Source: a virus. From it: 64,000 nt of DNA. The position numbers and the translations under genes are program-made. The stretch is taken from positions 1 to 64,000 of the IMG/VR virus record IMGVR_UViG_3300033144_003327. The stretch is one strand, 5' to 3'. How positions within the stretch are numbered: the first letter of the stretch is position 1; each line of letters starts with the position of its first letter. Below the pieces are notes generated by a model, which was given only the letters and a program-made list of their open reading frames with translations, did not search any database and was not told the DNA's origin. Below are positions 11,456 to 58,400 of the stretch, piece by piece.

Positions 11456-11460
11456 AGGCG

Positions 11461-13122: not shown

Positions 13123-13133
13123 AGGAGAATGAA

Positions 13134-13679: not shown

Positions 13680-13716
13680 ATTTCGTCTCGCGATGATTAT
13701 CAAATTAAGGATCCTG

Positions 13717-22486: not shown

Positions 22487-23208
22487 TCACTCAATCAACG
22501 TTGACCACCAACGGTGTCGATTTAAAAACACCTCCCCTGCCGGTGCCACCGCGCGTCACTTCCGGGCCTTCCCCAGCTCATGTGATCGTGGTGTGCGTCT
22601 GGTGGGGGAGTCAATACGGTGTGGAATATGTCGAGAAGCTGAGGAACTCTGTCGCGAGAAATCTCACGATACCCCATGATTTTCTCTGTGTGACGTCCCA
22701 CGTCGGCCCCGACGGTGTCACACGTATTAGTCCACCACGTGGAGGTGAAGGTTGGTGGCAAAAGGTGAACCTATTCGATCCCCTGATGTTCCCCTCCGGT
22801 GTACGAGTCCTCTATTTAGATTTGGATGTGGTCGTGGTTGGCTCTCTCGATAAGCTCGCCTCATCGAATGAACCATTCTGTATGATTGAGAATTACGGCC
22901 CCAACAAAGGCCACGCCGCGCACAATTCATCGATCATGTTGTGGACGCCCGATGAGAAGACCGCAAGGATCTACAACCTGTTCAGTGATGATGTCCCAAA
23001 ACAGCTACACGGTGACCAGTGTTGGATATGGCGCGTAATGAGAGACGACATAACTGATTTTCATCAGAACATGGCCGTGTCATATAAGTATGAAAAAGCG
23101 TCACCGAATTGGCATCACGCTGACGACAAGACTGCTGTCGTCGTGTTCCACGGGCAGCCAAAGCCCCACCAGGTAAAGGACCAAATGATTGTCCAGAATT
23201 GGCAATGA
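22474..23208 (+). CDS. putative GT-A-fold glycosyltransferase
   Basis: VIVVCVWWGSQYG N-terminal beta-strand and LYLDLDVVVVGSLD DxD-like motif. Confidence 0.35.
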   Translation: MSRMITQSTLTTNGVDLKTPPLPVPPRVTSGPSPAHVIVVCVWWGSQYGVEYVEKLRNSVARNLTIPHDFLCVTSHVGPDGVTRISPPRGGEGWWQKVNLFDPLMFPSGVRVLYLDLDVVVVGSLDKLASSNEPFCMIENYGPNKGHAAHNSSIMLWTPDEKTARIYNLFSDDVPKQLHGDQCWIWRVMRDDITDFHQNMAVSYKYEKASPNWHHADDKTAVVVFHGQPKPHQVKDQMIVQNWQ

Positions 23209-34445: not shown

Positions 34446-34693
34446 AGACGATCGATGAACAACTGACGGAACTGAAAGAGTGGAGCGGCCAGGGATATTA
34501 CGCGGCGGCGGAGGAACAGATGGCTGGCGAGGCGGCTGCGACGATTGAATTGTTGCTGAAGGAAATAGAGCGCCTGCGTGGTGCAAGGAAGGATGATTGC
34601 GTTGACTTTTTTAGGTGGTGGTGGAATCAACCGGGAAATGATACGGAAGCTGGCTATGACACATGGTTAGCACTAAAGCAGGAGGAATCATGA
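34442..34693 (+). CDS. small RLRG/QEES paralog 1
   Basis: IERLRGARKD, ends ALKQEES with embedded GGAGGA RBS for next gene. Confidence 0.4.
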   Translation: MKTIDEQLTELKEWSGQGYYAAAEEQMAGEAAATIELLLKEIERLRGARKDDCVDFFRWWWNQPGNDTEAGYDTWLALKQEES

Positions 34694-34980
34694 GTAAAGA
34701 ATTTATGAGGGCTGACCGGGACAGGTGGCAGGCTATGGCAAATGATTTGAAAACCCAGAACAAGCGCCTGCGTGGTGAGCGGGACTTGTTGTGTCAAGTG
34801 CTTGAGCGTGGCGGGATTGACTCATCAGCAATTCTTGCCAGTCAAGACGATGGGGGGTTATGGCTTGACGAGAACAAGCGCCTGCGTGGTTTGCTGGATA
34901 GAACCTACGAGTTAGCCAACCACAACAGCGTGGATTGCTATAAGTGCGCAGAGGTAGCGGCACTGCAGGAGGAATCATGA
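34690..34980 (+). CDS. small RLRG/QEES paralog 2 (two RLRG motifs)
   Basis: KRLRGERDLL and KRLRGLLDRT; ends ALQEES; ATGA-coupled. Confidence 0.4.
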   Translation: MSKEFMRADRDRWQAMANDLKTQNKRLRGERDLLCQVLERGGIDSSAILASQDDGGLWLDENKRLRGLLDRTYELANHNSVDCYKCAEVAALQEES

Positions 34981-35207
34981 GTGATAAATATATAGCTCAT
35001 AAAGATTGCGGTATTCACGCTACATATGAGCAGAACCCCTGTCCTCACTGTAAACATGAGCGCCAGCAACAGGAAATCCTATGCCTGCGTGGTGAGGTCG
35101 AACTCTATAAGGCCGTGTATGACGCTGCCCACAAGATCGTCAAGGGCGAACAGTGGAGTCAAGTGCCATTGAAAGAGGCTGTGGATGCTTTGCAGGAGGA
35201 ATCATGA
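34977..35207 (+). CDS. small RLRG/QEES paralog 3
   Basis: CPHCKHE zinc knuckle, LCLRGEVEL, ends ALQEES. Confidence 0.4.
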   Translation: MSDKYIAHKDCGIHATYEQNPCPHCKHERQQQEILCLRGEVELYKAVYDAAHKIVKGEQWSQVPLKEAVDALQEES

Positions 35208-35449
35208 GTAAATTACAGAATGAGGGCATCATTAACTGGCTCAAAGCCACGGAGGATGATGCTATGGGTATGGAGTCTGGCGACAGGGCAATGGCGTATG
35301 CTGCCCGCCAACTGATTCTGGACTCACTTGAGGAAATAGAGCGCCTGCGTGGTGATCTTGCAGATGCGGAGCAGCGATTTCAGTTTATGTCCGATCAGGT
35401 AGAGGCCAAATGCAAAATCATTGAGGCACTAAAGCGGGAGGAATCATAA
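35204..35449 (+). CDS. small RLRG/QEES paralog 4
   Basis: IERLRGDLADAE, ends ALKREES. Confidence 0.4.
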   Translation: MSKLQNEGIINWLKATEDDAMGMESGDRAMAYAARQLILDSLEEIERLRGDLADAEQRFQFMSDQVEAKCKIIEALKREES

Positions 35450-35631
35450 TGTGGCGGATATTCAAGTTGCGGGTTTGCTTAATTGGTTGGTGGTATCACC
35501 GTGTGTGGGTCGGAAATTGCCTATATAAGCAGGAATGGATTGAGTTATATGAGGATATGCCAAACCCGAAAGAGGCATATGAGGAAGGCTGGTGCCGTGA
35601 ATAGCAAAGCACTAAAGCAGGAGGAATCATA

Positions 35632-35925
35632 ATGTGTGATGGACCGATGACATGGGATGAACTGGCGCACGAACATACGCTACAGAAAAAGGAAATAGTG
35701 CGCCTGCGTGGTGTCATCGCTGCGTGGTATGCCTACTGGCCTGAGCCGTGGGGTGAAGGCAGGGACGGTTTTGAAATGCAGGAGTTTGGCGAGAAGCATG
35801 GTATCCTAATTGCGGAAGAAAAGACTACGCCATGTGGTGAGGGGTGCAATTGCACTGAGTTTTTTGGTGACAACGAAACAGTGACTTGTTACCGACTCAA
35901 GCCAGAATTTGTGGAAGGTGCATGA
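35632..35925 (+). CDS. small RLRG paralog 5
   Basis: preceded by GCACTAAAGCAGGAGGAATCATAATG junction; IVRLRGVIAAW. Confidence 0.4.
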   Translation: MCDGPMTWDELAHEHTLQKKEIVRLRGVIAAWYAYWPEPWGEGRDGFEMQEFGEKHGILIAEEKTTPCGEGCNCTEFFGDNETVTCYRLKPEFVEGA

Positions 35926-36576: not shown

Positions 36577-36782
36577 TGAATCATATTTATTTGTCAAGGA
36601 GGAATCTGCTGACCTTGCTCAATAAGCTGGCGCGGACTGGGAGTGCTCGGACTATCATCAAGAACGACACGGTGCATCCTGAATATCCGTGCACGACTGT
36701 GACGATGGTTACGGCTGTGGCAGACGAGGACTATTACGATGGGAGGGCGGCTGGCGTTGTTCATCCAGCGGACTTGCCGTAA
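36576..36782 (+). CDS. hypothetical protein
   Basis: 68 aa, ATGA-coupled. Confidence 0.25.
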   Translation: MNHIYLSRRNLLTLLNKLARTGSARTIIKNDTVHPEYPCTTVTMVTAVADEDYYDGRAAGVVHPADLP

Positions 36783-36783
36783 T

Positions 36784-36830
36784 GTGCCCTAGGACACACT
36801 TTGATTGATTCAGACTGCTATACTATGAGC
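36784..36830 (+). promoter_or_regulatory. class-2 intergenic element (copy 1): palindrome GTGCCCTAGGACAC + TATACT
   Basis: same motif as at 39167, 39492, 40208, 41062; followed by GAAAGGAAAAGGAAAACGAAATG. Confidence 0.45.
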
Positions 36831-36855
36831 TTGTAGAAAGGAAAAGGAAAACGAA

Positions 36856-37002
36856 ATGAGCAATCTAAACAAATTTTTGAAATCACTTGGACCGGATGCT
36901 TTGGATCGTGAAGACAATCGTACAGAGAAAGAGAAAGAAGAAGCTCGTCGTGAGGATATGCAAGAACAACGTGACGAATTGAAAACGGATCGCAGGGCCT
37001 AG
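36856..37002 (+). CDS. small acidic/basic protein (48 aa)
   Basis: below ORF-track threshold; strong RBS and class-2 element upstream. Confidence 0.25.
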   Translation: MSNLNKFLKSLGPDALDREDNRTEKEKEEARREDMQEQRDELKTDRRA

Positions 37003-37019
37003 AGAAAGGTGATTTGCGA

Positions 37020-37435
37020 GCTTAGGGTGATGTACGCATAACAAACTGAAATGACTTTTTTTATTTTAGGGAATATCCTGGTTTTATACCCTATGGGACT
37101 AGTTCCTATATAAATCAACACACGATAGAGCCTAGCAATAATTTACTTTAGCCTAAGGTACCTATATAACTGATTATCTTGGTGTAACTCAGCTTGGAAT
37201 TATCAGTTATGTTGTAGGTATGGTAATGTGGTAGAGCCTAGTGGTAGATGATTTGTGAGTAACAGGGATTCTTGTTCTGGTGCCGCGCGCATGTGAAGTT
37301 CACTTTTTATTTTTTTGAATTTGAGTCGTTACGTGTATAGGGCCTAAGTTCTGTCTCTTGGTGGATCGTTTTGGATTTGGGTCAGGGTGTGTTATCGTTG
37401 GTTTCCTGCTTATCTAGCTGAGGGAATCACTAGCG
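37020..37435. promoter_or_regulatory. AT-rich non-coding region upstream of terS with GCCTA(A)G repeats (candidate pac/late-regulatory region)
   Basis: ~415 nt with no ORF; repeats AGAGCCTAG x2, AGCCTAAGG, GGGCCTAAG; TATATAA boxes. Confidence 0.3.
37293..37316 (+). terminator. weak hairpin + T-run
   Basis: GTGAAGTTCAC followed by TTTTTATTTTTTT. Confidence 0.3.
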
Positions 37436-38029
37436 ATGGAAGCTCAAGAAGAACTGTTATCTGTCTCCGATCCGCAGGAGCCGGGCTTTAGGTGGACCCT
37501 AAAGAAGAAGAGGTTTGTTTCTAACTTCGTAAGGAATAACGGAAACGGCGCCAAGGCTGCTGTTGATGCGGGTTACACTGATCCGTCAGCGACAGGCCGT
37601 CTGCTTCAGCAAACGCTGGTTCGTCAGGCCATACATGACGAGCTCCGTGCCTGTCTACAAAAAGAGGGCGAAAATTCTGAGACAATAATCGCGAGATGGG
37701 CCAATATGGCTCAGGCCAATTTGGCTGACTATTTCAAAATGGATCAGGAGGGAGAATTGACGTTGGTGGACCTGACTCTCCTGACAAAAGATCAACAACT
37801 CAGGCTCAAGAAGATCACTGCTACGAGAAACCAGTACGGTCAGAACATCACTGTTGAGTTGCACGATGTCTTGAAAGCGAATGACCGATTGGCGGAGATT
37901 CACAATCTGTTGAAAGCTGAGCAAGGCTTCCTACCTCCTGATCAAACTGCCGCCGAAATACGCGACGCGATCAAGAAGATGGATGCTGTAGACGGGATAG
38001 AACGTCCCGCTGACGTCACTCTTCAATAG
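37436..38029 (+). CDS. terS: terminase small subunit (Terminase_2/P27-like)
   Basis: LKKKRFVSNFVRNNGNGAKAAVDAGYTDPSATGRLLQQ matches Terminase_2 N-terminal HTH pattern (LtpKQ..F..eYl..gNataAa..AGYs..tA). Confidence 0.7.
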   Translation: MEAQEELLSVSDPQEPGFRWTLKKKRFVSNFVRNNGNGAKAAVDAGYTDPSATGRLLQQTLVRQAIHDELRACLQKEGENSETIIARWANMAQANLADYFKMDQEGELTLVDLTLLTKDQQLRLKKITATRNQYGQNITVELHDVLKANDRLAEIHNLLKAEQGFLPPDQTAAEIRDAIKKMDAVDGIERPADVTLQ

Positions 38030-38040
38030 CCTCGCATTAT

Positions 38041-38620
38041 GTTAGATTACATAATACGCCTGAACTCCCTAGTGATTTAACATAACGTCTTAACATAATC
38101 TCGTTCATCAATTTGAGAGAAAAAGCGCTCCGCGTTCTCTTTCCCACGTTCGTGAAAAATACGCTCCGCGTTCTCTTTCTACAAAAACCGCTCCGCGTTC
38201 TCTTTCATATTCTCGTTGAGAGAGAGTCATTGGGATTACATAATGTCTTAACATAATCCGACTTAACATAATGTCTTAACATAATCCGATTGAGAGAGAA
38301 TCAGACTCAGTCTCATCATCATGATGTCTCACGATTTAACATAATGTCTCAACGAGAGAGGGCCTGTGGATAACTTATGCACAACTGTGGATAACTTTTG
38401 ATTTAACATAATCCTCAAACGAGAGCCAGAAGGACTCTTAACATAATGTCTTAACATAATCCCAGAAGTCTGAGAGATCATTATGTTTAATCAATGAGTC
38501 ATTTAACATAATGTCTTAACATAATCCTGAAACGAGTCCCAGACTCTCTTCGATCATGATCAGATAGAGAATGGTGGCGCACCCTCCCTCCTCCGTACCC
38601 GGCTTAGGTTTTACATAATG
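38041..38620. repeat. iteron array with two DnaA boxes (putative replication origin)
   Basis: ~13 copies of TTAACATAATGTC/TTAACATAATCC in 5 clusters; 3 copies of 18-bp CGCTCCGCGTTCTCTTTC (38125, 38162, 38189); two perfect DnaA boxes TGTGGATAA (=TTATCCACA) at 38366-38374 and 38386-38394; 10-bp IR TTACATAATG/CATTATGTAA near 38607. Confidence 0.55.
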
Positions 38621-38684
38621 ACGAACCTTTTAGAGGAACGACATTATGTAAAGTGTGATCAGCAACCCGGCCAGCGCGGCCCGT

Positions 38685-38987
38685 TTACTTAACAAAACGT
38701 GTCGCGATAATTTGTGCCGCTGCGCCAATTTCGTAATTGCTTATTTTGCTGTTGCGTCGAATCACTTCGCCGTCGTAAATTAACTGCATGGCCAATTCCA
38801 ACGTTGCACTATGCTGCTCCGCATATTCAACATTTTCAAAAAGGTCCGGCAAACACCCACCGACGTCGGCGGAGTATTCTTCGACTACTAATTCCGTAAG
38901 TGACAATTCCATTTTAAATATTCCTTTCGTGTAGTGTGAATATGCATAGTAACACAATTCCAACTCACTACAAGCGGTTTTTAACAT
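38685..38987 (-). CDS. hypothetical protein (minus strand, next to origin-like repeats)
   Basis: 100-aa ORF in otherwise non-coding stretch; one of very few credible minus-strand genes. Confidence 0.25.
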   Translation of the reverse strand: MLKTACSELELCYYAYSHYTKGIFKMELSLTELVVEEYSADVGGCLPDLFENVEYAEQHSATLELAMQLIYDGEVIRRNSKISNYEIGAAAQIIATRFVK

Positions 38988-39166
38988 AACGCCAAAATGA
39001 TTTGATTTAACATAATCCTGAAACGACTCCCAGATTGACTTAACATAATTGGACGGATCTCTCGCATTTTCTCGGGTAGACCTATACCTTGGTATTGGGA
39101 AGATTTGCGCGCCGTCAGCGTGGAATGAGTAATAATTTGCTCACAATTGCAGTGATATGCTATAAT

Positions 39167-39235
39167 GTGCCCTAGGACACAGTATGTCTCACTCAATCAT
39201 ATACAATGTGATTACACACTTAGGAAAGGAAAACG
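39167..39235 (+). promoter_or_regulatory. class-2 intergenic element (copy 2), preceded by consensus TATAAT at 39161
   Basis: GTGCCCTAGGACAC then degenerate hairpin, ACACTTAGGAAAGGAAAACGAAATG. Confidence 0.45.
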
Positions 39236-39237
39236 AA

Positions 39238-39486
39238 ATGAACGACACATACAAATCAGCTGAAACGGTTATACGTGGTTTCAAAGTAGAGCTGGAGATT
39301 GAAGGTGACGGCGACGACATAGTGTCCAGCTGTTTTGTTTACACCCCGGATCAAAATTACGGCAGCTCACTTGCACTGCTCATGGCCGAAGGTTTCATCG
39401 AACACGACAACGGATACGATGTGAAACGCATAAGGGACTACGTCCGCAACGAAATTGAAGATTGGGCACTGGAAAACGGATATTGA
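39238..39486 (+). CDS. small early-type protein
   Basis: 82 aa, acidic. Confidence 0.3.
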   Translation: MNDTYKSAETVIRGFKVELEIEGDGDDIVSSCFVYTPDQNYGSSLALLMAEGFIEHDNGYDVKRIRDYVRNEIEDWALENGY

Positions 39487-39491
39487 AAAAC

Positions 39492-39560
39492 GTGCCCTAG
39501 GACACAGTATAGCTGACTCATTCAGCTATACTGTGATTACACACTTAGGAAAGGAAATTA
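39492..39560 (+). promoter_or_regulatory. class-2 intergenic element (copy 3)
   Basis: GTGCCCTAGGACAC + perfect hairpin CAGTATAGCTGA-CTCAT-TCAGCTATACTG (39505-39533) containing TATACT. Confidence 0.5.
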
Positions 39561-39562
39561 AA

Positions 39563-39808
39563 ATGTCATCACCGAAAATGGTCAGTTACGTAACAAGCAA
39601 GCCGGATTGCCAAGCAATGATCAAAGCATTGCGCGCCGCCGGGCAGGATGTAATCAAAGATTCGCTGGGCGGCTACCACGCCAGCATGTACCAGTACGCT
39701 ACGAAGGACGGCGTGCGCACTGGAAAAGAGAGGCAAATCAAACTGTTCACAGCACTGCCGGGCCGCAACGGATATTTAGTTCGCCGCGTCGAAAATTTGT
39801 TCTCGTAG
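39563..39808 (+). CDS. small early-type protein
   Basis: 81 aa. Confidence 0.3.
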   Translation: MSSPKMVSYVTSKPDCQAMIKALRAAGQDVIKDSLGGYHASMYQYATKDGVRTGKERQIKLFTALPGRNGYLVRRVENLFS

Positions 39809-39873
39809 GTCTTGGGCTGGGCATTGCACTAGCAGTGCCCAGCGTTGGACACACACACAGAAAGGAAAACGAA

Positions 39874-40206
39874 ATGAACATAACACCACTTGAAGCGTTG
39901 GCCCTCAACCACTACGCATTTGACGAAATGAATCCCGTCAACGGTGCGCGGCCGGAAAGCGCTGACGATGTACACTGCTACGTTTGGATCGACGAGCTGG
40001 CGCCCCACTTGGACATTAGCATGTCGGCAGCGAAGGGCGTAGTCAGCTCACTTGTTAAAAAGGGGCTGGTGCAAGTTTCCAGCGACGAAGACCCGCAGGA
40101 GAGGGGGCTTAACTTTACTGAAGAGGGCTACCGCGTTTGGTGCACAATTGCCGACGCAGAGGACATTGCCGTCAGCTGGGAAATCAAAAACGCACATTGC
40201 GAGTAA
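39874..40206 (+). CDS. small winged-helix-like protein
   Basis: start after CACACAGAAAGGAAAACGAAATG; MSAAKGVVSSLVKKGLVQV recognition-helix-like. Confidence 0.3.
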   Translation: MNITPLEALALNHYAFDEMNPVNGARPESADDVHCYVWIDELAPHLDISMSAAKGVVSSLVKKGLVQVSSDEDPQERGLNFTEEGYRVWCTIADAEDIAVSWEIKNAHCE

Positions 40207-40207
40207 C

Positions 40208-40275
40208 GTGCCCTAGGACACAGTATAGCTGACTCATTCAGCTATACTGTGATTAACAAGTAAGCACACACAGGA
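40208..40275 (+). promoter_or_regulatory. class-2 intergenic element (copy 4)
   Basis: GTGCCCTAGGACAC + identical 12-bp-stem hairpin (40221-40249). Confidence 0.5.
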
Positions 40276-40353
40276 AAGCAAAATGTTAATTATCCAAAAA
40301 GTCATCAGCAAGTCAACTGGCAAAATCGTCACCATCAAATTGTGGGTGTCGTA

Positions 40354-40566
40354 ATGCTAATCAAAACCAAGTACACGTTCCAAACGCCCGGCGAGCACGT
40401 TGCCGCACTTGCACTGCTACAGCAGCAACCAGCCGCCCGCTACATTATTGACCGTTTGGAAATAACAGTCATCGCCCACATGCCGACAGTACGCTTGTTC
40501 AATGTTTCGCTAGTGCAAGCGCACATCACATATTTTAGAGGCGCCGAGCGCCCAGTGGAGAAATGA
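40354..40566 (+). CDS. small hypothetical protein
   Basis: ORF 40342..40566. Confidence 0.25.
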   Translation: MLIKTKYTFQTPGEHVAALALLQQQPAARYIIDRLEITVIAHMPTVRLFNVSLVQAHITYFRGAERPVEK

Positions 40567-40796
40567 AAATGAGCAGTCAATACATCACACACATAAGCCC
40601 GTTCACGCATATGTGCGAGGACTTGGATTGGTTCAAAGGAAATGGTTTTTACGTTTGCACGCCAGCCCTCAGTTCTGACGGAACAGGTTTGCAGCAACGC
40701 TGGGACGGCCCGTTTGTTGACGTCCAAGCCGCACGTTTGGAGTATGGCAATATTCGCTGCCACACACCAGCCCTCGGCAGCAGGAGTGGAGGATAA
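40563..40796 (+). CDS. small hypothetical protein
   Basis: 77 aa, ATGA-coupled. Confidence 0.25.
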   Translation: MKMSSQYITHISPFTHMCEDLDWFKGNGFYVCTPALSSDGTGLQQRWDGPFVDVQAARLEYGNIRCHTPALGSRSGG

Positions 40797-41008
40797 TGAG
40801 AAACGGATATTTGGAAAGACAGGACGAGGTGGTGGCCAAAATTAAATGGCGCATTGCTGCATTGGAGGAAGCCCGCATTGAGTGGGTACAGCAAGCCAAC
40901 GAAAGTAACAGCTGGAACGAGAACGGTGAACTGACCGAGGCTTGCGCTAACGAACGGGAGCAGGATGGCTTGCGCTACGCACTAGCACTGCTGGAGCGGA
41001 CGAAATGA
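40796..41008 (+). CDS. small hypothetical protein (coiled-coil-like)
   Basis: 70 aa. Confidence 0.25.
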   Translation: MRNGYLERQDEVVAKIKWRIAALEEARIEWVQQANESNSWNENGELTEACANEREQDGLRYALALLERTK

Positions 41009-41061
41009 ATTTTCCCAACCTTTCCGCGCTGGAAATATGGTTGCGGTGGAATAGCTAATCT

Positions 41062-41130
41062 GTGCCCTAGGGCACAGTATGGTTCACTCATTCAGCTATA
41101 ATGTGATTGAACAGTTAGCAAACACACACA
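41062..41130 (+). promoter_or_regulatory. class-2 intergenic element (copy 5, perfect palindrome GTGCCCTAGGGCAC)
   Basis: perfect 14-bp palindrome + degenerate hairpin + CACACACAAAGGAAAGGAACATG. Confidence 0.45.
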
Positions 41131-41435
41131 AAGGAAAGGAACATGGAAACTTTAAAAATCGAAACAATTACTCTCGTCGGCGAAAGCGTAACAGTAACCG
41201 AAGAAATCGTCTACGTTGAAAAAGTAATTTTGGAGGAAGTGTAAAATGGTCATCATCGCATTTTCATTCGCACTGTTTTTCGTATACGCAGTAATTTTTG
41301 AGTAAGGCTTGGGTGGTGCATTGCACTAGCAGTGCACCACGTTGGACTTACACACACAGAAAGGAAAATTGAAATGGAATATTACAGCATTGAAGATTAC
41401 CACTTTTGGACGTGGATTGATTCGTGGGGTGACTT

Positions 41436-41618
41436 ATGAGCACTGTGGTAGAGACAATCGACTGCACCCCAACGTGGGAAGCGGCAACACGGATTTACAT
41501 CGCAGTGTTGCGCAACCCAGACGCTGGCCTGGAAGCTCAAGCCGCCGCCGAAGAGGACCTCCTTGCACTAGCAAAGGCAATGGACGGAATTAAATCATCT
41601 AGGGAGGCTCAATCATGA
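41436..41618 (+). CDS. small hypothetical protein
   Basis: 60 aa; preceded by 21-codon mini-ORF with ATGA coupling. Confidence 0.25.
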   Translation: MSTVVETIDCTPTWEAATRIYIAVLRNPDAGLEAQAAAEEDLLALAKAMDGIKSSREAQS

Positions 41619-41929
41619 GTAACATGAGCTACTGCCGGTTTGAAAATACGTACAGGGACCTCGTGGATTGTCAAGAGGCGCTGGACGAGCTGGGCAACAG
41701 CTACAGCATCCAATGTCAAATGAAGGCCAAAACCAAAGAGCTGGAGGCAGCCCACGCAGCGGATGATGTAGACCTGGTCGATAAGTTGGGATGCGAAGTG
41801 GACGACCTCCGTGACCAGCTGGGCGCACTCAGTGAAAGTGAGCACCAGTACGCTGTGCAGTTGCTTTTACTGTGCCAAGAGATGGTGGACCAGTTTGACC
41901 CGGACGACATTATTGCGGAGGACGGATAA
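41615..41929 (+). CDS. small acidic hypothetical protein
   Basis: 104 aa. Confidence 0.3.
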   Translation: MSNMSYCRFENTYRDLVDCQEALDELGNSYSIQCQMKAKTKELEAAHAADDVDLVDKLGCEVDDLRDQLGALSESEHQYAVQLLLLCQEMVDQFDPDDIIAEDG

Positions 41930-42052
41930 TGTACCAGGTACTAGATAGCCAGGGGCGTGTAGCTACTACGCACGCCACCCTGGCCAGTGCTCAAGCGTGG
42001 ATTGTCATAGTCGGCACTGCCGATAAGCAGTACACGATACAGGAGGTGCCCA

Positions 42053-42253
42053 GTGCATAACCACTCTATCACCACCGTGTATGATGATGGTACCCAGCTG
42101 TCTATGCAGTGCACTAGCACAGAAGACAATGCGGATCAGCGTACAGCAGTACACCTTAAAGACAGGCAACGTGATGCACAGCGTACAGACCTTGGTATAC
42201 TGCACTACGTGGTGACGTTTAACCACGAGGTACATGTACTGATACAGGATTAA
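42053..42253 (+). CDS. small hypothetical protein
   Basis: 66 aa. Confidence 0.25.
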   Translation: MHNHSITTVYDDGTQLSMQCTSTEDNADQRTAVHLKDRQRDAQRTDLGILHYVVTFNHEVHVLIQD

Positions 42254-42299
42254 CCTAGTGTGTGTGTGCTTAGGCAGTACTGTATAGACATACAGTACT

Positions 42300-42560
42300 G
42301 TCTTTTTTTATCTACGGCTCTTAACATAACGTTATTACATAATACGAGCCTCTCTATCTCTCTTATTTAACATAACGTAGTTACATAATACCATCCTCTC
42401 TATCTCTCTATCTCTTAACATAATGTAGATCATAGATAGTCATGATCATCTATCAGATAGAGAGACAGATCATAGAGAGATTATGTTAAGACGTTATGTA
42501 ATCTCGTATTATGTAAAGACATTATGTTAAGATTACATAACGTTATTACATAAGCCCCAC
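42300..42560. repeat. second iteron region: imperfect large palindrome with TTAACATAA / TTATGTTAA in opposite orientations
   Basis: TTAACATAACG / TTACATAATAC repeats on left, TTATGTTAAGA / TTATGTAA on right, CTCTCTATCTCTCT tracts, centre near GATAGTCATGATCATCTATC. Confidence 0.45.
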
Positions 42561-42643
42561 CACCCCACCACCACGAATTTCATTTAATGTACCCAAGATC
42601 GCGGAGACAGTACTCAGCGATCAGTATTGACCACCAGACGGTA

Positions 42644-42820
42644 TTAAAACCTGAGTGATGCTTTGTCCGGTGGCCTCTTAGGATCATGATCGACAATCTT
42701 GACTGATTGGAACCCGCCCAAAACCAGGGCATCGGCTTTGGCGGACGCCGCCTCCATCGCCATGTTCTTCCCGAACCTCATCCGGCCACTTAGGCCAATG
42801 GCAGTAACATCGTATCGCAT
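42644..42820 (-). CDS. small protein (58 aa) on minus strand with phage-consensus RBS
   Basis: reverse complement reads GAAGATAAGGAGAAAGGAAG-ATG CGA TAC ...; RBS identical to consensus of + strand genes; not in ORF track (<60 aa). Confidence 0.35.
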   Translation of the reverse strand: MRYDVTAIGLSGRMRFGKNMAMEAASAKADALVLGGFQSVKIVDHDPKRPPDKASLRF

Positions 42821-42961
42821 CTTCCTTTCTCCTTATCTTCAGTTTTAATAGTAACACAATCACTCAGCCATACAACCACTTCGTTACATAATCCCCAAAT
42901 GAACTAGCGATATGAGCGAGACAGATGTATCATCAGGAAAAGCCAGCCACACGGTATTAAA

Positions 42962-44386
42962 ATGTCACTAAGACTTGACCACGAAACAGAATTAACCAGT
43001 CGCTGGACCCCTATGCGGTATCATGCGGAGCAATCCCGTCTCTGCAGAAGCCAGGCCAGGTTCAAAGTCGTACCCGCCGGACGCCGTAGTGGCAAGACAG
43101 AGAGAGCCAAACGTCAAGTCGTGAAAGCGGCCTTGAGTTCCACAGGACCGAGTCCAGCTTATTTTTGCGCGGCACCAGTCAGAGATCAAGCGAAGAGAAT
43201 CTATTGGGATGATCTAAAACTCCTGGTAGGTCAGCGATACATGATGCGGCGCCCGAGTGAGAGCGAGCTCACAATTTGGACAGTAAACGGTGCGAAGATT
43301 GTCGTGATTGGAATGGACAGGCCGGAGAGGATCGAGGGAACACCTTGGGACGGTGGGATTCTAGATGAGTACGGAAACATGAAAGAGACGGCGTGGATGG
43401 AGAACGTACGGCCAGCATTGGCGGACCGGATGGGGTGGTGCTGGTTGATCGGAGTGCCCGAGGGTAGGAACCACTATTACGAGAGATATCGGTTCGCTCA
43501 GGGACCAGGGAATGTCAAGAACGGAGGTGAGTGGGACGCGTTTACTTGGTTCAGTTCTGATATCCTGACGCCGGAGGAGATAGCTGCGGCCCGCGCGGAC
43601 CTCGACCTACTAACCTACCAGCAGGAATACGAGGCGTCGTTCATTAACTTCACGGGTCAGTGTTATTACCCGTTTGATGAAAAAGTCCACTGCACAAACC
43701 TGAAACAGAATTACAATCCGAATAGGGACCTGATCATCTGTTTCGACTTCAACGTCGATCCCGGCGTGGCAGTCATCTGTCAGGAAATGGCATACCCGCG
43801 CATCATCCTACCCATCAAAGGCCTGAAGGTAGACAACAGGACGATGTTCCGCGACAGTGTCATCGACGTGGCACCCGCGGGCACGGCAGCGATTGGTGAA
43901 GTCCATATTCCAAGAAATAGCAATACCCGGGCCGTATGCCGTAAACTAATTCACGATTGGGCCGAGCACCAAGGAAGAATTTTGATTTATGGTGACGCGA
44001 CGGGCGGAGGTAGGAGTACCACGTCGGACCAACCAGGTGAGAATGATTGGGATATCGTCAAGAATGAACTCTATGGATTCTTCGGAGCAACACGAGTGTT
44101 GATGCACGTACCAGGCAAGAACCCGACAGAGCGATCACGAGTGAACTCGATGAATACGAGATTAAGGACGGGCGATGATACGATACGTCTGATGGTAGAT
44201 CCTGCAGAATGCCCCAGCCTGGTACATGACCTTGAGGGCGTGAGACTCTTGGAAGGCGGAAGCGGCGAGATTGATAAGAAGGCAGACCCAAAATTGACCC
44301 ACTTGACCGACGCTCTCGGATATTACATCGTGGCAGAGTTCCCGGTCAGGCAGGAAGTGTTCAGCATCAACGAATTGAGGGCATGA
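42962..44386 (+). CDS. terL: terminase large subunit
   Basis: Walker A VVPAGRRSGKTE near N-terminus, nuclease-domain acidic residues downstream; 474 aa. Confidence 0.85.
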   Translation: MSLRLDHETELTSRWTPMRYHAEQSRLCRSQARFKVVPAGRRSGKTERAKRQVVKAALSSTGPSPAYFCAAPVRDQAKRIYWDDLKLLVGQRYMMRRPSESELTIWTVNGAKIVVIGMDRPERIEGTPWDGGILDEYGNMKETAWMENVRPALADRMGWCWLIGVPEGRNHYYERYRFAQGPGNVKNGGEWDAFTWFSSDILTPEEIAAARADLDLLTYQQEYEASFINFTGQCYYPFDEKVHCTNLKQNYNPNRDLIICFDFNVDPGVAVICQEMAYPRIILPIKGLKVDNRTMFRDSVIDVAPAGTAAIGEVHIPRNSNTRAVCRKLIHDWAEHQGRILIYGDATGGGRSTTSDQPGENDWDIVKNELYGFFGATRVLMHVPGKNPTERSRVNSMNTRLRTGDDTIRLMVDPAECPSLVHDLEGVRLLEGGSGEIDKKADPKLTHLTDALGYYIVAEFPVRQEVFSINELRA

Positions 44387-53981: not shown

Positions 53982-55460
53982 ATGCCAATTTTAGATATCA
54001 TACGGACAGTAGGTGATCGTGTAGCCAGCACTGCTTCAGGTTGGGTGAGAACACACGCGATCGGCATCGGCGGAAACACTGTGCATTCTGACGGCACAGC
54101 AGAATTTTTCTGTATTACGACGGGAATTTTCGGTGGGGACAGCACTGTCACAAATGATTACGAACTGGTGCTGCGGGATGGCGACACCGACATTGAACAC
54201 ACAAGATGTTTGTTGGAACCTCCAGTGGCAAGCACCACTTTTCTCGGGGCACATTATGCCTTCGGGACGAAAATTACAAAATTGCGGACGTCGCCGCGGA
54301 CGTCGCCGCTTCCTGATATCGCATTGTGGATGAGAGTATCGACAGCTGATCGAGTTGCAAGCTGTGTGGTTGACTCGTGGCTCATTCCACTTGATGATTT
54401 AGTAGAGGGGCAAGACTGGTTGTCAGCTGAAACCTCCCCAGTAGGGAACGCGCCTCAAACATACACAGACGGGGCAAGCATACAATTGCCGGGGGGCATC
54501 TCTCCCGAAGACGATTGGGTCATTTTTGCTACAACACATTGGCTTGTTGATAGCACAAACGCTGATATGTCAATGAGAATAGTTGACGGTGACGAGTCTC
54601 CGGAGGGGCATCACACAGAGGCGCGTTTTGAAGGCGAGGACACCAGTAATCAGCATTCTTTCATGACCACAAAACTCACGAAAGGATCTCCGGCAGGATC
54701 TCCGGAGAAAGTGGTTAAAGTTCAATATAAAAATAGTGCGAATAACAATGATTGCGACCACACAGAAATCTTCGCGCTACGATTGAATATATTCAAAAAT
54801 TACATGATAGATCAGACCGCTGTTGGCGCACCGTTGAACACGTTTGGTGGACCGTTCAGTCCAACGCCTCCAGATGCAGACCCACTTGTCACTGAGTTCG
54901 ATATAGTCGGCATTACAGCGAGCCCGGATACGCAATTTATGACGATGGCTTTTGGAAGATTCACGGGCACTGACGACAATAATCAAAGAGAAATCCTGTC
55001 GCGAGTTTTCGACCAGATCGGTTCTCCCAGTCGTGCGGCACAATCGCCCTATTCATTAGAACTCTCGCCGCAACATTTTCAATCAGCTGGTGACTTCACT
55101 ATTGGACAGATGGGAAATAACGCCAGTACTGAACTGCATCCGGTGTTTAAAATAAGTCGTAAAGATTCTTTGGATTCCGGGCAGTTTGATCAGACACTGA
55201 CGACGATGTCCGTTCCGAGTGTCGCTAATGTCGGCGATCCCGTCGCGGAAGATGTTGATTTTTGGCATTGCACGTTCGGTCGTGAGCTTGCAGAAGGCGT
55301 CCCGTCTCCACAATCTCCGCAGGGCGGCGGCGGATCCCCAACGCCTGTATCCCTCACCTCTGACGACTTCCGTTTCAGAGAGAACGACGGCAGCGAGTCA
55401 GCCGCAACGTGGATCGCAGCGCAGGACACTGACATCACGAGGCCGCAGGGGCAAACGTAA
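53982..55460 (+). CDS. structural protein, 492 aa
   Basis: ATGA-coupled to giant repeat gene. Confidence 0.4.
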   Translation: MPILDIIRTVGDRVASTASGWVRTHAIGIGGNTVHSDGTAEFFCITTGIFGGDSTVTNDYELVLRDGDTDIEHTRCLLEPPVASTTFLGAHYAFGTKITKLRTSPRTSPLPDIALWMRVSTADRVASCVVDSWLIPLDDLVEGQDWLSAETSPVGNAPQTYTDGASIQLPGGISPEDDWVIFATTHWLVDSTNADMSMRIVDGDESPEGHHTEARFEGEDTSNQHSFMTTKLTKGSPAGSPEKVVKVQYKNSANNNDCDHTEIFALRLNIFKNYMIDQTAVGAPLNTFGGPFSPTPPDADPLVTEFDIVGITASPDTQFMTMAFGRFTGTDDNNQREILSRVFDQIGSPSRAAQSPYSLELSPQHFQSAGDFTIGQMGNNASTELHPVFKISRKDSLDSGQFDQTLTTMSVPSVANVGDPVAEDVDFWHCTFGRELAEGVPSPQSPQGGGGSPTPVSLTSDDFRFRENDGSESAATWIAAQDTDITRPQGQT

Positions 55461-58400
55461 TGGCCGCTGATACCTTTTTCCGGTTACGCATAGGCGTCCG
55501 CAACGACGGCGGAGCGATAGACCAGACGTATACGTTGCAAGTGAGCGACGATGTTGGTGGCAGTTGGACGGATGTAACCGACTCTTCGGACACTTGTCGA
55601 TTGGTAGCAGTCGGATCCCCGGCGTACTTCGCAGACCTTGATGCAACGACAGAACAGCTCGCAGGATCGGGAACATTCATCGCGGGTGAGATGATCGAGG
55701 GCACCGGTACGGCTGTCACCAGTTCGGTACTCCTGCAACTCGGCGAAGAGACAGAATTCGAATTTTTGCTGGAGGCGCACAACAACATACAAGGCGCGAC
55801 GCTCTCATTTCGTTTGGTGGGAAGTGTAACGTCTCCGATAGCGGTGCCACAGACAGTTGTCCCGGACTACACGATCGACAGCAGTGCCGCAGAGACAATC
55901 TGTGATGTATCTTTCCCGACACCGGCTGTTGCGCCGTACTTTGAAAGTGATTCACCCGAAACGCCGAAACAGGTGTTCAAATGGGAGCTGCGAAAAGATA
56001 GTCTGAACTCGGGCACCGGAACACCGACTGCTGATTTCTTCCTGTATGAAGGCGGCGTACTTCGGGAGACATTAACGCAGGGCGTTTCAATAACCGATGC
56101 CGTGCGGCAGATCGTGACAGTCACATGGGATGCGAAAAACCTTGTTGATCCTACAGGCGCAGATGTTGAAGCCCGGATGCGTGGCAACGTCGGCGGGAGT
56201 GGCGTTCAACAAAGAACCGTTGAAGTTGGCGCCGTTGAGTGGTGTGTAGAGCACGCCTTACCGACAGCGAATGTCACTGGCACCGTCAACGTAACGCTCG
56301 GCGACGATACGCTTGCCGCATCCGGTGATCGGTCATTCCTTGGCACTGTTGCAGTAACGCTGGGTGATGACACCCTAGTCGCAGCGGGCGGAATTGAAGT
56401 TTCAGGATCCGTTGCCGTAACGCTTGGCGACGACACTCTCGTCGCAGCAGGGACGCCAGAGATAATTGGCACCGTCGCTGTAACCGAAGGTGATGACACC
56501 CTCGCGGGCGCGGGCGAGCTTGAATACATCGGCACCGTCGCAGCAACCCTCGGAGATGACACGCTGGTTGCGGCTGGCGAGCTGGAAGTATCCGGCACCG
56601 TCGCAGCGACAACGTTAGACGATACTCTCGCGGGCGCGGGCGAACAAGACAACCGTGGAACAGTAGCGTCCACAACGTTAGATGATACGCTTGCCGCAAC
56701 AGCCATCGCCGCGATTACCGGAACCGTCGCAGCAACAACGTTAGACGACACGCTAGTCGCTACTGGTGCACAAGACAATCAAGGAACCGTCGCAGCAACA
56801 ACGTTAGACGACACGCTCGTAGCTTCGGCCGAACAAGACAACCGCGGAACCGTTGCAACGACAACGTTAGACGACACGCTAGTCGCCGCCGCGTCAACGG
56901 GAGACGTAACCGGAACCGTTGCAACGACAACGTTAGACGACACGCTCGTTGGATCAGCTGAGCAAGACAACCGCGCAACAGTCGCAGCGACAACGCTAGA
57001 TGACACGCTAGTCGCCGCCGGTCTCACTGGTGATATACTCGGTACCGTTGCAGCGACGACTCTCGATGACACGCTTGTCGCGGCAGGTGAGCAAGACAAC
57101 CGCGCAACAGTCGCAGCGACAACGTTAGACGACACGCTTGTCGCAGCCGGTGACATTGAAGTCGTCGGCGATGTTGACGTCAATCTTGATGCCACCGAAG
57201 GTGATGACACGCTTGTCGCAGCCGGTGATCTTGAATATGTAGGTACTGTCGCAACAACGACGTTAGACGATATTCTTGTCGCCGCAGCCGAACAAGACAA
57301 CCGTGGAACAGTAGCGTCCACAACGTTAGACGACACGCTCGCCGCTGCCGGTGCAATAGAAGTTGACGGCACGGTCGCAGTTACCCTGGGCGACGACACT
57401 CTTGTCGCAGCCGGTGACGTAGCTTCAGAGACCACTGGAACAGTCGCAACCACGACCCTTGACGACACTCTTGTCGCTTCTGGTGAACAAGACAACCGCG
57501 GAACAGTCGCAGCGACGACGTTAGACGATATTCTTGTCGCAGCCGGGTTGACAGGTGACGTAACAGGTACCGGTAGTGTTACATTAGGTGACGACACGCT
57601 CGTCGCTTCTGGTGAACAAGACAACCGCGGTACCGTTGCAGCGACGACGTTAGACGATACGCTTGCGGCGACCGGTAGTGTTGATGTCGTCGGTGACGTA
57701 GACGTCAATCTTGATGCTACTGAAGGCGACGACACGCTCGTTGCCGCTGGTGACCTTGAATACGTAGGTTCTAGTGCAGTCACATTAGGTGATGATACTC
57801 TTGTCGCAGCCGGTGCCCTTGAATACATCGGCACCGTTGCATCCACGACCCTTGACGATACTCTCGCGGCCGCAGGATTGACAGGAGACATACTCGGTAC
57901 CGTCAGCGTAACGTTGGGTGATGATACTCTTGTCGCTTCGGCTGAACAAGACAACCGGGGTACTGTCGCAGCGACAACGCTAGACGATACTCTAGTCGCA
58001 GCTGGTGTTAACGGGACTGATGCGACAGTCGCAGCGACGTTGGGTGACGACACACTCGCGGGTGCCGCCGAACAAGACAACCGCGGAACAGTCGCAGCGA
58101 CAACGCTAGACGATACTCTAGTCGCAGCTGGTGAACAAGACAACCGGGGTACTGTCGCAGCGACAACGCTAGACGATACTCTAGTCGCTTCTGGTACAAC
58201 GGGTGACGTGACTGGCACCGCTAGTGTCACGTTAGGTGACGACACGCTCGCCGGATCAGCCGAACAAGACAACCGGGGTACTGTCGCAGCGACATTAGGT
58301 GATGACACTCTCGTCTCCGACGGTGACGTTGAAGTCGTCGGCGATATTGACGTCGATCTCGATGCTACTGAAGGCGATGATACTCTTGTCGCAGTCGGCG

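What the first reader, a model, noticed from the sequence alone, without database searches (positions are those of the whole stretch)
39167..41130. Recurrent intergenic element: 14-bp palindrome GTGCCCTAGGACAC followed by a 12-bp-stem hairpin carrying TATACT
Five copies (36784, 39167, 39492, 40208, 41062) each sit 40-60 nt upstream of a small gene. Two copies have a perfect hairpin CAGTATAGCTGA-CTCAT-TCAGCTATACTG. The palindrome looks like an operator for a dimeric regulator, and the hairpin overlaps a -10-like TATACT. Together they may form a regulated early promoter, or an RNase III/terminator-antiterminator site dividing a polycistronic transcript.
Basis: seen in the sequence. Interest (0 to 1): 0.55.

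Follow-up and report, generated by a model that had tools for sequence, protein, structure and literature searches.

The report
Repeated regulated promoter cassette in phage
An uncultured phage carries five copies of an intergenic module, each a 14-bp palindrome placed exactly 21 bp upstream of a -10 promoter box, which most likely form a small set of protein-regulated promoters driving unknown small genes; this is a fairly ordinary kind of phage control element, though the sequence is new.

Summary
GTGCCCTAGGRCAC occurs five times (36784, 39167, 39492, 40208, 41062), always intergenic and on the + strand. Four copies start 1-5 nt after a stop codon. All lie 57-67 nt before a strong RBS and ATG.

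Across the copies the palindrome is 13-14/14 identical. A TAnnnT hexamer (TATACT, TACAAT or TATAAT) lies exactly 21 nt downstream in every copy, with no indels. The spacer between them has drifted to 10-18/21 identity. No -35 hexamer is present. The dyad centre falls at about -41 from the inferred start, which is the geometry of class II activator sites, and with its flanks it reads TGTGC-N6-GCACA, resembling a CRP site.

The 12-14 bp hairpin is stable only in copies 3 and 4, which are one recent 50-nt duplicate. It is decayed in the other three copies. The RNase III or terminator reading is therefore not supported for the family.

Best reading: operator-controlled, -35-less promoters arranged as PeSL-like cassettes in a variable island of small genes. 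A MarR-like winged-helix gene at 39874 lies inside the island and is a candidate regulator. No homologous element was found in any relative or collection searched. Verdict: new member of a known kind, modest interest.

The parts
36784..36797 (+). Copy 1 palindrome GTGCCCTAGGACAC, 1 nt after the TAA stop at 36780-36782
36819..36824 (+). Copy 1 -10-like TATACT, preceded by TGC (extended -10 form). Inferred TSS near 36831. Serves the 48-aa gene 36856-37002.
   Evidence: the TSS is an inference
39158..39166 (+). Perfect extended -10 promoter-like TGCTATAAT abutting the copy 2 palindrome. The palindrome would cover about +1 to +14 of this promoter.
   Evidence: sequence reading; inference
39167..39180 (+). 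Copy 2 palindrome, the first of the cluster, downstream of the divergent control region
39202..39207 (+). Copy 2 -10-like TACAAT at the same column as in the other copies. Serves the 82-aa gene 39238-39486.
39492..39505 (+). Copy 3 palindrome, 5 nt after the TGA stop at 39484-39486
39503..39535 (+). Copy 3 perfect hairpin: 14-bp stem and 5-nt loop, containing the -10-like TATACT at 39527-39532. Serves the 81-aa gene 39563-39808.
40208..40221 (+). Copy 4 palindrome, 1 nt after the TAA stop at 40204-40206
40219..40251 (+). Copy 4 hairpin, identical to that of copy 3, with TATACT at 40243-40248. Serves the 23-codon micro-ORF 40283-40354 and the coupled genes 40354-41008.
41060..41077 (+). Copy 5: perfect 18-bp palindrome CTGTGCCCTAGGGCACAG (core 41062-41075)
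41097..41102 (+). Copy 5 -10-like TATAAT (consensus). Serves the 33-aa gene 41143-41244.
39874..40206 (+). 110-aa MarR-like winged-helix protein, a candidate regulator, encoded between the identical copies 3 and 4
39816..39843 (+). Type B intercistronic hairpin 1: 12-bp stem with ACUA loop. A separate element class in the same cluster.
41313..41340 (+). Type B hairpin 2. It differs from hairpin 1 by three compensatory pair changes.
42272..42310 (+). Intrinsic terminator (14-bp stem plus a run of seven T) closing the small-gene cluster

Best explanation
Each copy is a compact promoter cassette with this layout: upstream stop codon, 14-18 bp dyad ([T/C]GTGC-CCTAGG-[A/G]CACA), 21 nt, a -10 hexamer (TATACT, TACAAT or TATAAT), GTGATT(A), a 20-30 nt leader, a strong RBS and the ATG.

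The dyad is the binding site of a dimeric DNA-binding protein. It occupies about -48 to -35, centred at about -40.5 to -41.5, where the missing -35 hexamer would be. The five promoters therefore form one small regulon controlling about 16 small genes, mostly without homologues, at 36.8-42.3 kb.

I favour activation in class II geometry, as for CRP/FNR-type, Mu Mor/C or lambda cI at PRM. At copy 2 the same bound protein would sit on +1 of an adjacent extended -10 promoter, so it could switch that promoter off. Repression by the same site is the close second.

The 14-bp hairpin of copies 3 and 4 is a lineage-specific add-on. At most it attenuates read-through in the manner of PeSLs. It is not the core of the element.

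Shown: the copies, the conservation pattern, the fixed spacing, the absence of a -35, hairpin stability in only one lineage, and the MarR-like fold of the gene at 39874. Inferred: the transcription start sites, protein binding, the identity of the regulator and the sign of regulation.
For: There are five copies, all intergenic and co-oriented with the genes.

Block conservation: the palindrome is 13-14/14 identical in all pairs. The spacer is 10-18/21. The -10 hexamer keeps T1, A2 and T6 in all copies at the same column.

Copy 1 has lost 9 of 21 spacer positions relative to copy 3, yet keeps 14/14 of the palindrome and 6/6 of the -10. At 57% identity the chance of this is 0.57^14, about 4e-4, for the palindrome and about 0.03 for the hexamer (my arithmetic).

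The 47-nt core has no indels, while the leader does.

The sigma-70 two-hexamer scan finds nothing in the elements. The position 17 nt upstream of the -10 reads ACAGTA. In the same genome, class I promoters keep TTGTAA-16-TACTAT, so the host polymerase does appear to use a -35.

As an RNA the palindrome is weak, -3.3 to -4.2 kcal/mol in four copies, so sequence rather than structure is what is conserved.

The CRP logo is two TGTGA elements in inverted repeat separated by 6 bp, and class II sites overlap the -35 (PMC12360894). That paper also lists experimentally bound CRP sites with TGTGC or GCACA half-sites.

The protein at 39874 models as a MarR-type wHTH: pLDDT 73.5, nearly all of the top 50 Foldseek hits against PDB are MarR-family regulators, and the family profile matches MarR chains at E=0.0014.
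Against: There are no transcript data, so every TSS is inferred.

The five copies are paralogues in one genome. Gene conversion could mimic selection, and copies 3 and 4 are clearly a recent duplicate.

No homologous element was found in any relative or collection searched. Cross-species conservation therefore cannot be used.

The dyad centre is one bp closer to the -10 than the canonical -41.5.

No CRP/FNR-type protein turned up among the window ORFs that were scanned. That scan covered about 40 ORFs, not all of them.

The candidate MarR-like protein is acidic (7 K+R against 20 D+E), and MarR proteins are mostly repressors. Its only close homologue, in a Tara phage, sits behind an ordinary TTGACA-17-TATATT promoter with no such palindrome.
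Confidence: 0.55

Rival explanations
1. Repressor operator or roadblock, stoperator-like. The dyad binds a phage repressor, for example the MarR-like protein at 39874 acting on its own cluster. This repressor shuts off weak -10-only promoters, blocks read-through at each gene junction, and turns the small-gene cluster off after early expression.
For: Four copies lie 1-5 nt after stop codons in short intergenic gaps, all in one orientation. Stoperators of Cluster A mycobacteriophages are described in this way (PMC9283540).

The copy 2 dyad covers +1 of an extended -10 promoter.

The candidate regulator has a MarR fold, and that family consists mostly of autorepressors (family behaviour is from general knowledge).

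A dyad at -48 to -35 would also occlude RNAP.
Against: No -35 element is present, and only copy 1 has the TGn extension. The promoters to be repressed therefore look too weak to need repression, unless the host RNAP ignores the -35. The phage's class I promoters do keep a -35.

There are only 5 sites within 4.3 kb, not a genome-wide network.

No integrase or immunity cassette was seen among the ORFs scanned.
Confidence: 0.25
2. RNA-level element. The hairpin, with or without the palindrome, acts in a polycistronic transcript as an RNase III or processing site, a terminator-antiterminator or an mRNA stabiliser.
For: Copies 3 and 4 fold into a 14-bp stem, with dG of about -21 kcal/mol for the hairpin alone and z-scores of -6.3 and -4.8 for the intergenic stretches.

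82.9% of alignment cells can pair, against 13-41% in the slid controls.

The same cluster contains two genuine structured hairpins of another type, with three compensatory changes between them. RNA structure is therefore used in this cluster.
Against: Copies 1, 2 and 5 do not fold better than shuffles, with z-scores of +0.4, +0.2 and -1.2. Their constrained stems are +10.1, +4.4 and -5.7 kcal/mol.

There is only one double-sided change. 190 of 500 shuffles reach the observed percentage paired, and 61 of 500 reach the covariation score.

There is no U-tract.

The best-conserved block, the palindrome, is a poor RNA hairpin.

There is no Rfam match.
Confidence: 0.07
3. Recombination cassette, PeSL-like, as the main significance. 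The repeated about 50-nt modules are substrates for homologous recombination that shuffles, duplicates or deletes the small genes. Regulatory activity would be secondary. This reading is compatible with the best explanation.
For: The layout of stop codon, stem-loop, promoter, SD and ATG, with the stem-loop overlapping the -10, matches the description of PeSLs (PMC2839356; PMC4122927).

Copies 3 and 4 are identical direct repeats 716 bp apart, flanking two genes.

The cluster lies in a variable region between TerS and TerL. Relatives fill this region differently.

The cluster is bracketed by iteron arrays.
Against: No variant genome is available that shows an exchange at these sites. The only other assembly is 99.9% identical.

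Strong conservation of the palindrome relative to the spacer points to protein recognition, not merely to homology for recombination.
Confidence: 0.08
4. Promoter for a phage single-subunit (T7-like) RNA polymerase. TAGGGCACAGTAT resembles the K11 and SP6 promoter cores (TAGGGCACACTATAG and TAGGTGACACTATAG, recalled from memory).
For: This is sequence reading only.
Against: No ORF of RNAP size or family was found. The ORFs of 400 aa or more are a UvrD helicase, PolA, TerL, the portal, two unassigned ORFs in the structural-gene region without Pfam hits, one unscanned 410-aa ORF and a 1635-aa repeat protein.

No T7-RNAP motifs appear in the six-frame translation.

The roughly 2.4 kb of genome missing from the window is too small for such a gene and must also hold the start of the helicase gene.

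The resemblance does not hold in copies 1-4 downstream of position -5.
Confidence: 0.02

Closest known systems
PeSL (promoter-early stem-loop) cassettes of T4-type phages RB49/phi1, PST and nt-1 (Arbiol et al. 2010, PMC2839356; Comeau et al. 2014, PMC4122927)
   Same: Both are repeated intergenic modules about 50-80 nt long that begin at the upstream stop codon and end at the SD and ATG. Both combine a promoter with a stem-loop that can overlap the -10. Both are concentrated in a variable region full of small genes without homologues. In both, near-identical copies flank genes as direct repeats.
   Different: This is a different phage type: a genome of about 66 kb with PolA and 7-deazaguanine modification genes. 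The -35 box is absent and a strictly conserved 14-bp palindrome stands in its place. The stem-loop is intact in only one lineage (two copies) and is not a G/C-tract terminator. No recombination products have been observed.
Class II activator-dependent promoters (CRP/FNR family sites centred near -41.5; definition and CRP logo in PMC12360894)
   Same: A dyad overlaps or replaces the -35, with a good -10 hexamer. GTG-N8-CAC matches the CRP half-site geometry, and the central CTAG is shared with the CRP consensus. TGTGC and GCACA half-sites occur in experimentally bound CRP sites.
   Different: Both half-sites have C/G where CRP prefers A/T. The centre is at about -40.5, one bp off the canonical position. 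The host is unknown. No CRP-family gene was found in the part of the phage that was scanned. Activation is untested.
Stoperators of Cluster A mycobacteriophages (PMC9283540)
   Same: Both are short conserved sites in small intergenic gaps next to stop codons, co-oriented with transcription and recognised by a phage regulator.
   Different: Stoperators are asymmetric, are bound by a monomeric repressor, number in the dozens across the genome and belong to temperate phages. Here there are five palindromic sites in 4.3 kb, each with its own -10, and no lysogeny module was seen among the ORFs scanned.
Mu Mor/C-dependent middle and late promoters (from general knowledge, not tested here)
   Same: Both are -35-less promoters with a dyad bound by a small phage-encoded dimeric activator just upstream of the -35 position.
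   Different: No Mor/C-family protein was detected among the scanned ORFs. The Mu sites are centred at about -43.5 and have a different sequence.

Membership tests
Sigma-70-type promoter | -10 hexamer close to TATAAT with A2 and T6 | tested here: met
   The hexamers are TATACT, TACAAT, TATACT, TATACT and TATAAT, at the same alignment column in all five copies.
Sigma-70-type promoter | -35 hexamer close to TTGACA, 16-18 nt upstream of the -10 | tested here: not met
   The scan finds no two-hexamer promoter in any element. The position reads ACAGTA or ACACTT. The only GACA-containing hexamer (AGGACA) is 22 nt away.
Sigma-70-type promoter | Mapped primary transcript 5' end | not testable with these tools
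   No RNA data are available for this uncultured phage.
Class II (CRP/FNR-type) activator-dependent promoter | Activator dyad overlapping the -35 position, centred near -41.5 | tested here: met
   The dyad centre is 28 nt upstream of the first base of the -10 hexamer in all five copies. That places it at -40.5 to -41.5, depending on the true TSS (definition from PMC12360894).
Class II (CRP/FNR-type) activator-dependent promoter | CRP-type site TGTGA-N6-TCACA | tested here: inconclusive
   The site reads [T/C]GTGC-CCTAGG-[A/G]CACA, which matches 12 of 16 positions of the consensus as I recall it. GTG and CAC are kept, but the A/T at position 5 is replaced by C/G in both halves.
Class II (CRP/FNR-type) activator-dependent promoter | A cognate activator exists and stimulates transcription | not testable with these tools
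   No cNMP-binding or HTH_Crp protein appears among the roughly 40 window ORFs scanned with Pfam. The host is unknown.
PeSL cassette | Intergenic module running from the upstream stop codon to the SD and ATG of the next gene | tested here: met
   definition
PeSL cassette | Strong sigma-70 promoter with both -35 and -10 boxes | tested here: not met
   Only a -10 is present.
PeSL cassette | Stable stem-loop inside or next to the promoter | tested here: inconclusive
   A stable stem-loop is present in copies 3 and 4 (dG -21). It is marginal in copy 5 (-5.7) and absent in copies 1 and 2.
PeSL cassette | Located in a hyperplastic region of small novel genes, with copies mediating gene shuffling | tested here: inconclusive
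   The region between TerS and TerL differs among relatives. The genes have no PHROG or Pfam family apart from the gene at 39874 and a partial match for 41615. Copies 3 and 4 are identical direct repeats. No recombinant genome is available.
Stoperator (Cluster A mycobacteriophage) | Many asymmetric 13-14 bp sites spread over the genome, bound by the immunity repressor | tested here: not met
   There are five sites, all within 36784-41075, and they are (near-)palindromic. Allowing up to 3 mismatches finds only two more matches, both in coding sequence. No lysogeny genes were found among the ORFs scanned.
Intrinsic terminator | G+C-rich stem followed by a U-tract | tested here: not met
   No + strand terminator call falls in the elements. 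No T-run follows either the palindrome or the hairpin.
RNase III or other processing hairpin, conserved RNA structure | Stem maintained across copies, with compensatory changes | tested here: not met
   only one double-sided change. Shuffles match the observed pairing in 190 of 500 cases. Three of the four independent copies do not fold.
Any Rfam family | Match at the gathering threshold | tested here: not met
   There are 0 matches in the whole window.
T7-like ssRNAP promoter | Cognate single-subunit RNAP encoded by the phage | tested here: not met

The most novel reading that the evidence does not exclude
The elements would be self-contained mobile regulatory cassettes outside the T4-like phages. 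In this reading a MarR-like regulator gene (39874) travels between two identical copies of its own operator-promoter. The palindrome-plus-promoter modules both wire newly acquired small genes into one regulon and serve as the recombination points that bring those genes into an island inserted in the phage's iteron (origin or packaging) region.
Probability: 0.12. Interest if true: 0.55.

Novelty: new member of a known kind. Interest (0 to 1): 0.3.

Why it matters
If confirmed, the five sites define a phage-specific regulon and a candidate orthogonal operator, promoter and regulator set. The promoter core is short, about 50 nt, and portable.

It would also give a handle on when and how a block of about 16 small genes of unknown function is expressed.

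It would extend the PeSL idea, in which repeated regulatory cassettes act as units of gene shuffling, from T4-type myoviruses to an unrelated lineage of environmental phages with PolA and 7-deazaguanine genes.

None of this overturns current understanding. Repeated, regulator-controlled promoters are common in phage genomes.

Tried and rejected
1. Homologues elsewhere. The exact 19-mer in IMG/VR hits only one coding sequence, present in three contigs, which is a chance match. The pattern of palindrome plus -10 hits only unrelated terminator-like palindromes in the metagenome collection and in the GTDB genomes. The right-half pattern has 0 hits in IMG/VR. The type B loop pattern gives only chance coding hits. 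Megablast of the region against GenBank phages finds nothing. An nhmmer profile of the core, run against all 66 sequences fetched (726 kb), finds only the window and its twin contig L042.

2. Relatives. The TerL relatives (34 loci, at most 63% identity) and the TerS relatives (L043 at 74%, L045-L052 at about 55%) share the iterons, the class I promoters and the ACACAC...AGGAG leader. They have no such palindrome and no other recurrent palindrome.

3. Regulator by co-occurrence. The only close homologue of the gene at 39874 (P0012, in a Tara phage) has no such site nearby.

4. Sigma-54 reading (GG-N10-GC). The spacing fits only copies 3 and 4, and in a different register from copy 5, so I rejected it from sequence reading.

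5. LexA box. Copy 5 reads CTGT-N10-ACAG, which is the wrong spacing, and the flanks are absent in the other copies, so I rejected it.

6. ssRNAP promoter (K11/SP6-like). No RNAP gene is present.

7. The palindrome as a terminator. Its dG is only -3.3 to -4.2 kcal/mol in four copies, and there is no U-tract.

8. Restriction-site idea. CCTAGG occurs 7 times against 15 expected, and 5 of the 7 are in the elements. This is uninformative.

9. The AF2 model of the basic 81-aa protein (39563) has pLDDT 52.6 and is unusable.

10. Attempts to fetch the missing genome end through two window proteins failed because the proteins are not on record.
Full report
CONTEXT

The window is most of the genome of an uncultured tailed phage. 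The TerS protein is on record on a 66,419-bp contig. An independent 6.5-kb contig from JGI sample 3300033388 is 99.92% identical to 36819-43322.

Nearly all genes are on the + strand. Recognisable functions are:
- a UvrD-type helicase, a family A DNA polymerase (17784) and a clamp-like processivity factor;
- a 7-deazaguanine DNA-modification set: QueE-, QueC-, QueF- and TGT/DpdA-like proteins;
- an XRE-type HTH protein (31740);
- TerS (37436), TerL (42962) and the portal (44388).

No GenBank phage is similar at the DNA level. The best TerL match is 56% identical.

THE OBSERVATION

GTGCCCTAGGACAC occurs exactly at 36784, 39167, 39492 and 40208. The perfect palindrome GTGCCCTAGGGCAC occurs at 41062. 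No shuffle reaches the observed count.

All five copies are intergenic and on the + strand. Copies 1, 3, 4 and 5 start 1-5 nt after a stop codon. Each copy is followed 57-67 nt later by an RBS of the AGGAAAGGAAA type and an ATG.

Copies 3 and 4 are identical for about 50 nt. They contain a perfect 14-bp stem with a 5-nt loop, and TATACT lies in the 3' arm. The description in the finding is therefore correct.

WHAT IS CONSERVED AND WHAT IS NOT

The alignment of the five copies has no gap from the palindrome to seven bases past the hexamer. Indels appear only in the leader.

Block identities:
- palindrome: 13-14/14 in every pair;
- 21-nt spacer: 10-18/21;
- hexamer: TATACT, TACAAT, TATACT, TATACT and TATAAT, so T1, A2 and T6 are invariant;
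- the following GTGATT(A/G): conserved in four copies.

Copy 1 is the informative one. Relative to copy 3 its spacer is only 12/21 identical, yet the palindrome is 14/14 and the hexamer 6/6. Two blocks, the dyad and the -10-like hexamer, together with their spacing, are therefore what is maintained.

The hairpin is not maintained. Of the 14 stem positions, copies 1, 2 and 5 keep 6+2, 9+1 and 10+2 WC+GU pairs. Their constrained energies are +10.1, +4.4 and -5.7 kcal/mol, against -21.0 for copies 3 and 4. Their full intergenic folds do not differ from shuffles, with z-scores of +0.37, +0.19 and -1.17.

Pair counting shows residual dyad symmetry: 82.9% of cells pair, against 13-41% in the slid controls. 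There is only one double-sided change, and the pairing level is matched by 190 of 500 column shuffles. This looks like the decay of an ancestral inverted repeat, not selection for a stem.

As an RNA the palindrome itself is weak: -3.3 to -4.2 kcal/mol in four copies and -12.2 in copy 5. Nothing in the element is followed by a U-tract. Rfam has no match anywhere in the window.

PROMOTER ANATOMY

No -35-like hexamer lies 16-18 nt upstream of the hexamer. That position reads ACAGTA.

The phage does have a second, different promoter class with a clear -35: TTGTAA-16-TACTAT(TAAAT) at 6414, 23212, 24845 and 32120. This class is conserved in the TerS relatives L043, L045 and L049. The host polymerase evidently uses a -35, so the palindrome elements look like promoters that need help.

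The centre of the dyad lies 28 nt upstream of the first base of the hexamer in all copies. That is about -40.5 to -41.5, covering -48 to -35. [quoted passage not shown]

With one flanking base on each side the site reads [T/C]GTGC-CCTAGG-[A/G]CACA. Copy 5 is a perfect 18-bp palindrome, CTGTGCCCTAGGGCACAG. [quoted passage not shown] The table in that paper lists bound sites with TGTGC or GCACA halves.

I treat this as a lead and not as a membership call. No CRP-family protein was found among the roughly 40 ORFs scanned, and the host is unknown.

Copy 2 has an extra feature. A perfect extended -10 (TGCTATAAT, 39158-39166) abuts the palindrome, so a protein on the dyad would sit on +1 of that promoter. 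One protein could therefore repress the upstream promoter and activate, or also repress, the downstream one.

CANDIDATE REGULATOR

The 110-aa product of 39874 gives sub-threshold TrmB and MarR Pfam hits.

It belongs to a family with 144 representative sequences. The profile of that family matches MarR chains in the PDB at E=0.0014.

Its AlphaFold model has pLDDT 73.5 and pTM 0.71. It shows helix-turn-helix plus wing topology, and nearly all of the top 50 Foldseek hits against PDB are MarR-family regulators, with TM about 0.5-0.64.

MarR proteins are dimers that bind (pseudo)palindromes (general knowledge). The gene lies between the two identical copies 3 and 4.

Nothing ties it to the dyad directly. 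It is acidic, and its one close homologue, in a Tara phage, has no such site nearby. The XRE protein at 31740 is the other obvious candidate.

GENOMIC SETTING

Copies 2-5 punctuate a 3.1-kb run of about 16 small genes (39238-42253). Only two of these have any family match.

The run is closed by a strong intrinsic terminator at 42272. It is bracketed by arrays of the iteron TTAACATAAT, with 15 exact copies confined to 38090-39049 and 42415-42530.

In relatives, the interval between TerS and TerL holds iterons and only one to three genes, without these elements. The cluster therefore looks like a lineage-specific island.

Two other junctions in the cluster (39816-39843 and 41313-41340) carry a different hairpin with a 12-bp stem and an ACUA loop. 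Its two copies differ by three compensatory pair changes, and its dG is about -30 kcal/mol. That hairpin, and not the palindrome element, is the convincing RNA structure in this region.

COMPARISON WITH KNOWN SYSTEMS

The closest described analogue in layout is the PeSL of T4-type phages. These are repeated cassettes running from the upstream stop codon through a sigma-70 promoter to the SD and ATG. [quoted passage not shown] They are concentrated in hyperplastic regions of small novel genes and mediate shuffling by recombination (PMC2839356; PMC4122927).

The present element shares the layout, the setting and the direct-repeat arrangement. It fails the defining -35/-10 promoter criterion. It has a strictly conserved palindrome instead, keeps the stem-loop in only one lineage, and occurs in an unrelated phage.

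Stoperators (PMC9283540) share the position next to a stop codon and the co-orientation. They are asymmetric, numerous and belong to temperate phages.

Mechanistically, the best fit is an activator-dependent promoter in class II geometry. A repressor operator is the close rival.

SEARCH FOR RELATIVES OF THE ELEMENT

All searches were negative or returned chance hits. They comprised exact and gapped pattern scans of IMG/VR, the metagenome collection and GTDB genomes, plus an nhmmer profile over every locus fetched.

The argument therefore rests on four independent paralogous copies in one genome. This is its main weakness.

VERDICT

The hairpin, RNase III or terminator half is not supported for the family.

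This is a new sequence family of a familiar kind: repeated, regulator-controlled phage promoter cassettes. Interest is modest, at 0.3.

My confidence that these are protein-regulated promoters is 0.55. Within that, I put activation at about 0.55-0.6 and repression at about 0.4-0.45.

Noticed in passing
window 38090-39049 and 42415-42530; also L043, L045, L049: The iteron TTAACATAAT occurs 15 times exactly, only in two arrays that bracket the small-gene cluster between TerS and TerL. The same motif is conserved in all TerS relatives. Its reverse complement, TTATGTTAA, also sits just upstream of the class I promoters at about 6395 and about 32107. It is probably the site of a replication, packaging or transcription protein.
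   Followed up: partly
window 38125-38202 and 38365-38394: There are three GCTCCGCGTTCTC repeats (CCGCTCCAGAG in relatives) and two DnaA-box-like TGTGGATAA motifs 21 bp apart, inside the iteron region. This suggests a replication origin next to TerS.
   Followed up: no
window 39816-39843 and 41313-41340: A second intercistronic element class: a hairpin with a 12-bp stem and an ACUA loop (dG about -30, z about -5 to -6), placed directly after stop codons. Its two copies differ by three compensatory base-pair changes, and there is no U-tract. It is likely a genuine RNA structure, acting as a processing site or stabiliser.
   Followed up: partly
window 6414, 23212, 24845, 32120 (+ strand); 42843-42853 (- strand): A conserved class I promoter family, TTGTAA-16-TACTAT(TAAAT), with a conserved GTGAGTCA in the spacer. 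It is shared with relatives L043, L045 and L049.
   Followed up: partly
window 37003-37435: A 433-nt non-coding stretch upstream of TerS carries TAGAGCCTAG repeats (37126 and 37232, plus GGGCCTAAG near 37341). The repeats are conserved in L043 and L049. It may be a pac site or a late-control region.
   Followed up: no
window 8302-14783 and 19762-23208: A gene set for 7-deazaguanine DNA modification (QueE-, QueC-, QueF- and TGT/DpdA-like) plus glycosyl- and methyltransferases. The phage DNA is probably hypermodified.
   Followed up: no
window 34520-35925: A tandem array of small paralogous genes shares an (E)RLRG motif and a C-terminal (Q/K/R)EES*. The C-terminus is encoded by a repeated junction, GCAGGAGGAATCATG, so the RBS of each gene lies in the end of the previous one.
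   Followed up: no
window 55460-60367: A 1635-aa ORF is built largely from about 63-nt (21-aa) tandem repeats, with dozens of copies. It is probably a fibre or adhesin.
   Followed up: no
window 42272-42310: A strong intrinsic terminator (14-bp stem plus TTTTTTT) separates the small-gene cluster from the second iteron array and TerL.
   Followed up: no
window 41066-41081 (copy 5) and the equivalent positions in the other copies: TAGGGCACAGTAT resembles the core of the K11 and SP6 single-subunit RNAP promoters as recalled from memory. No such polymerase is encoded in the window, so I treat this as coincidence.
   Followed up: yes
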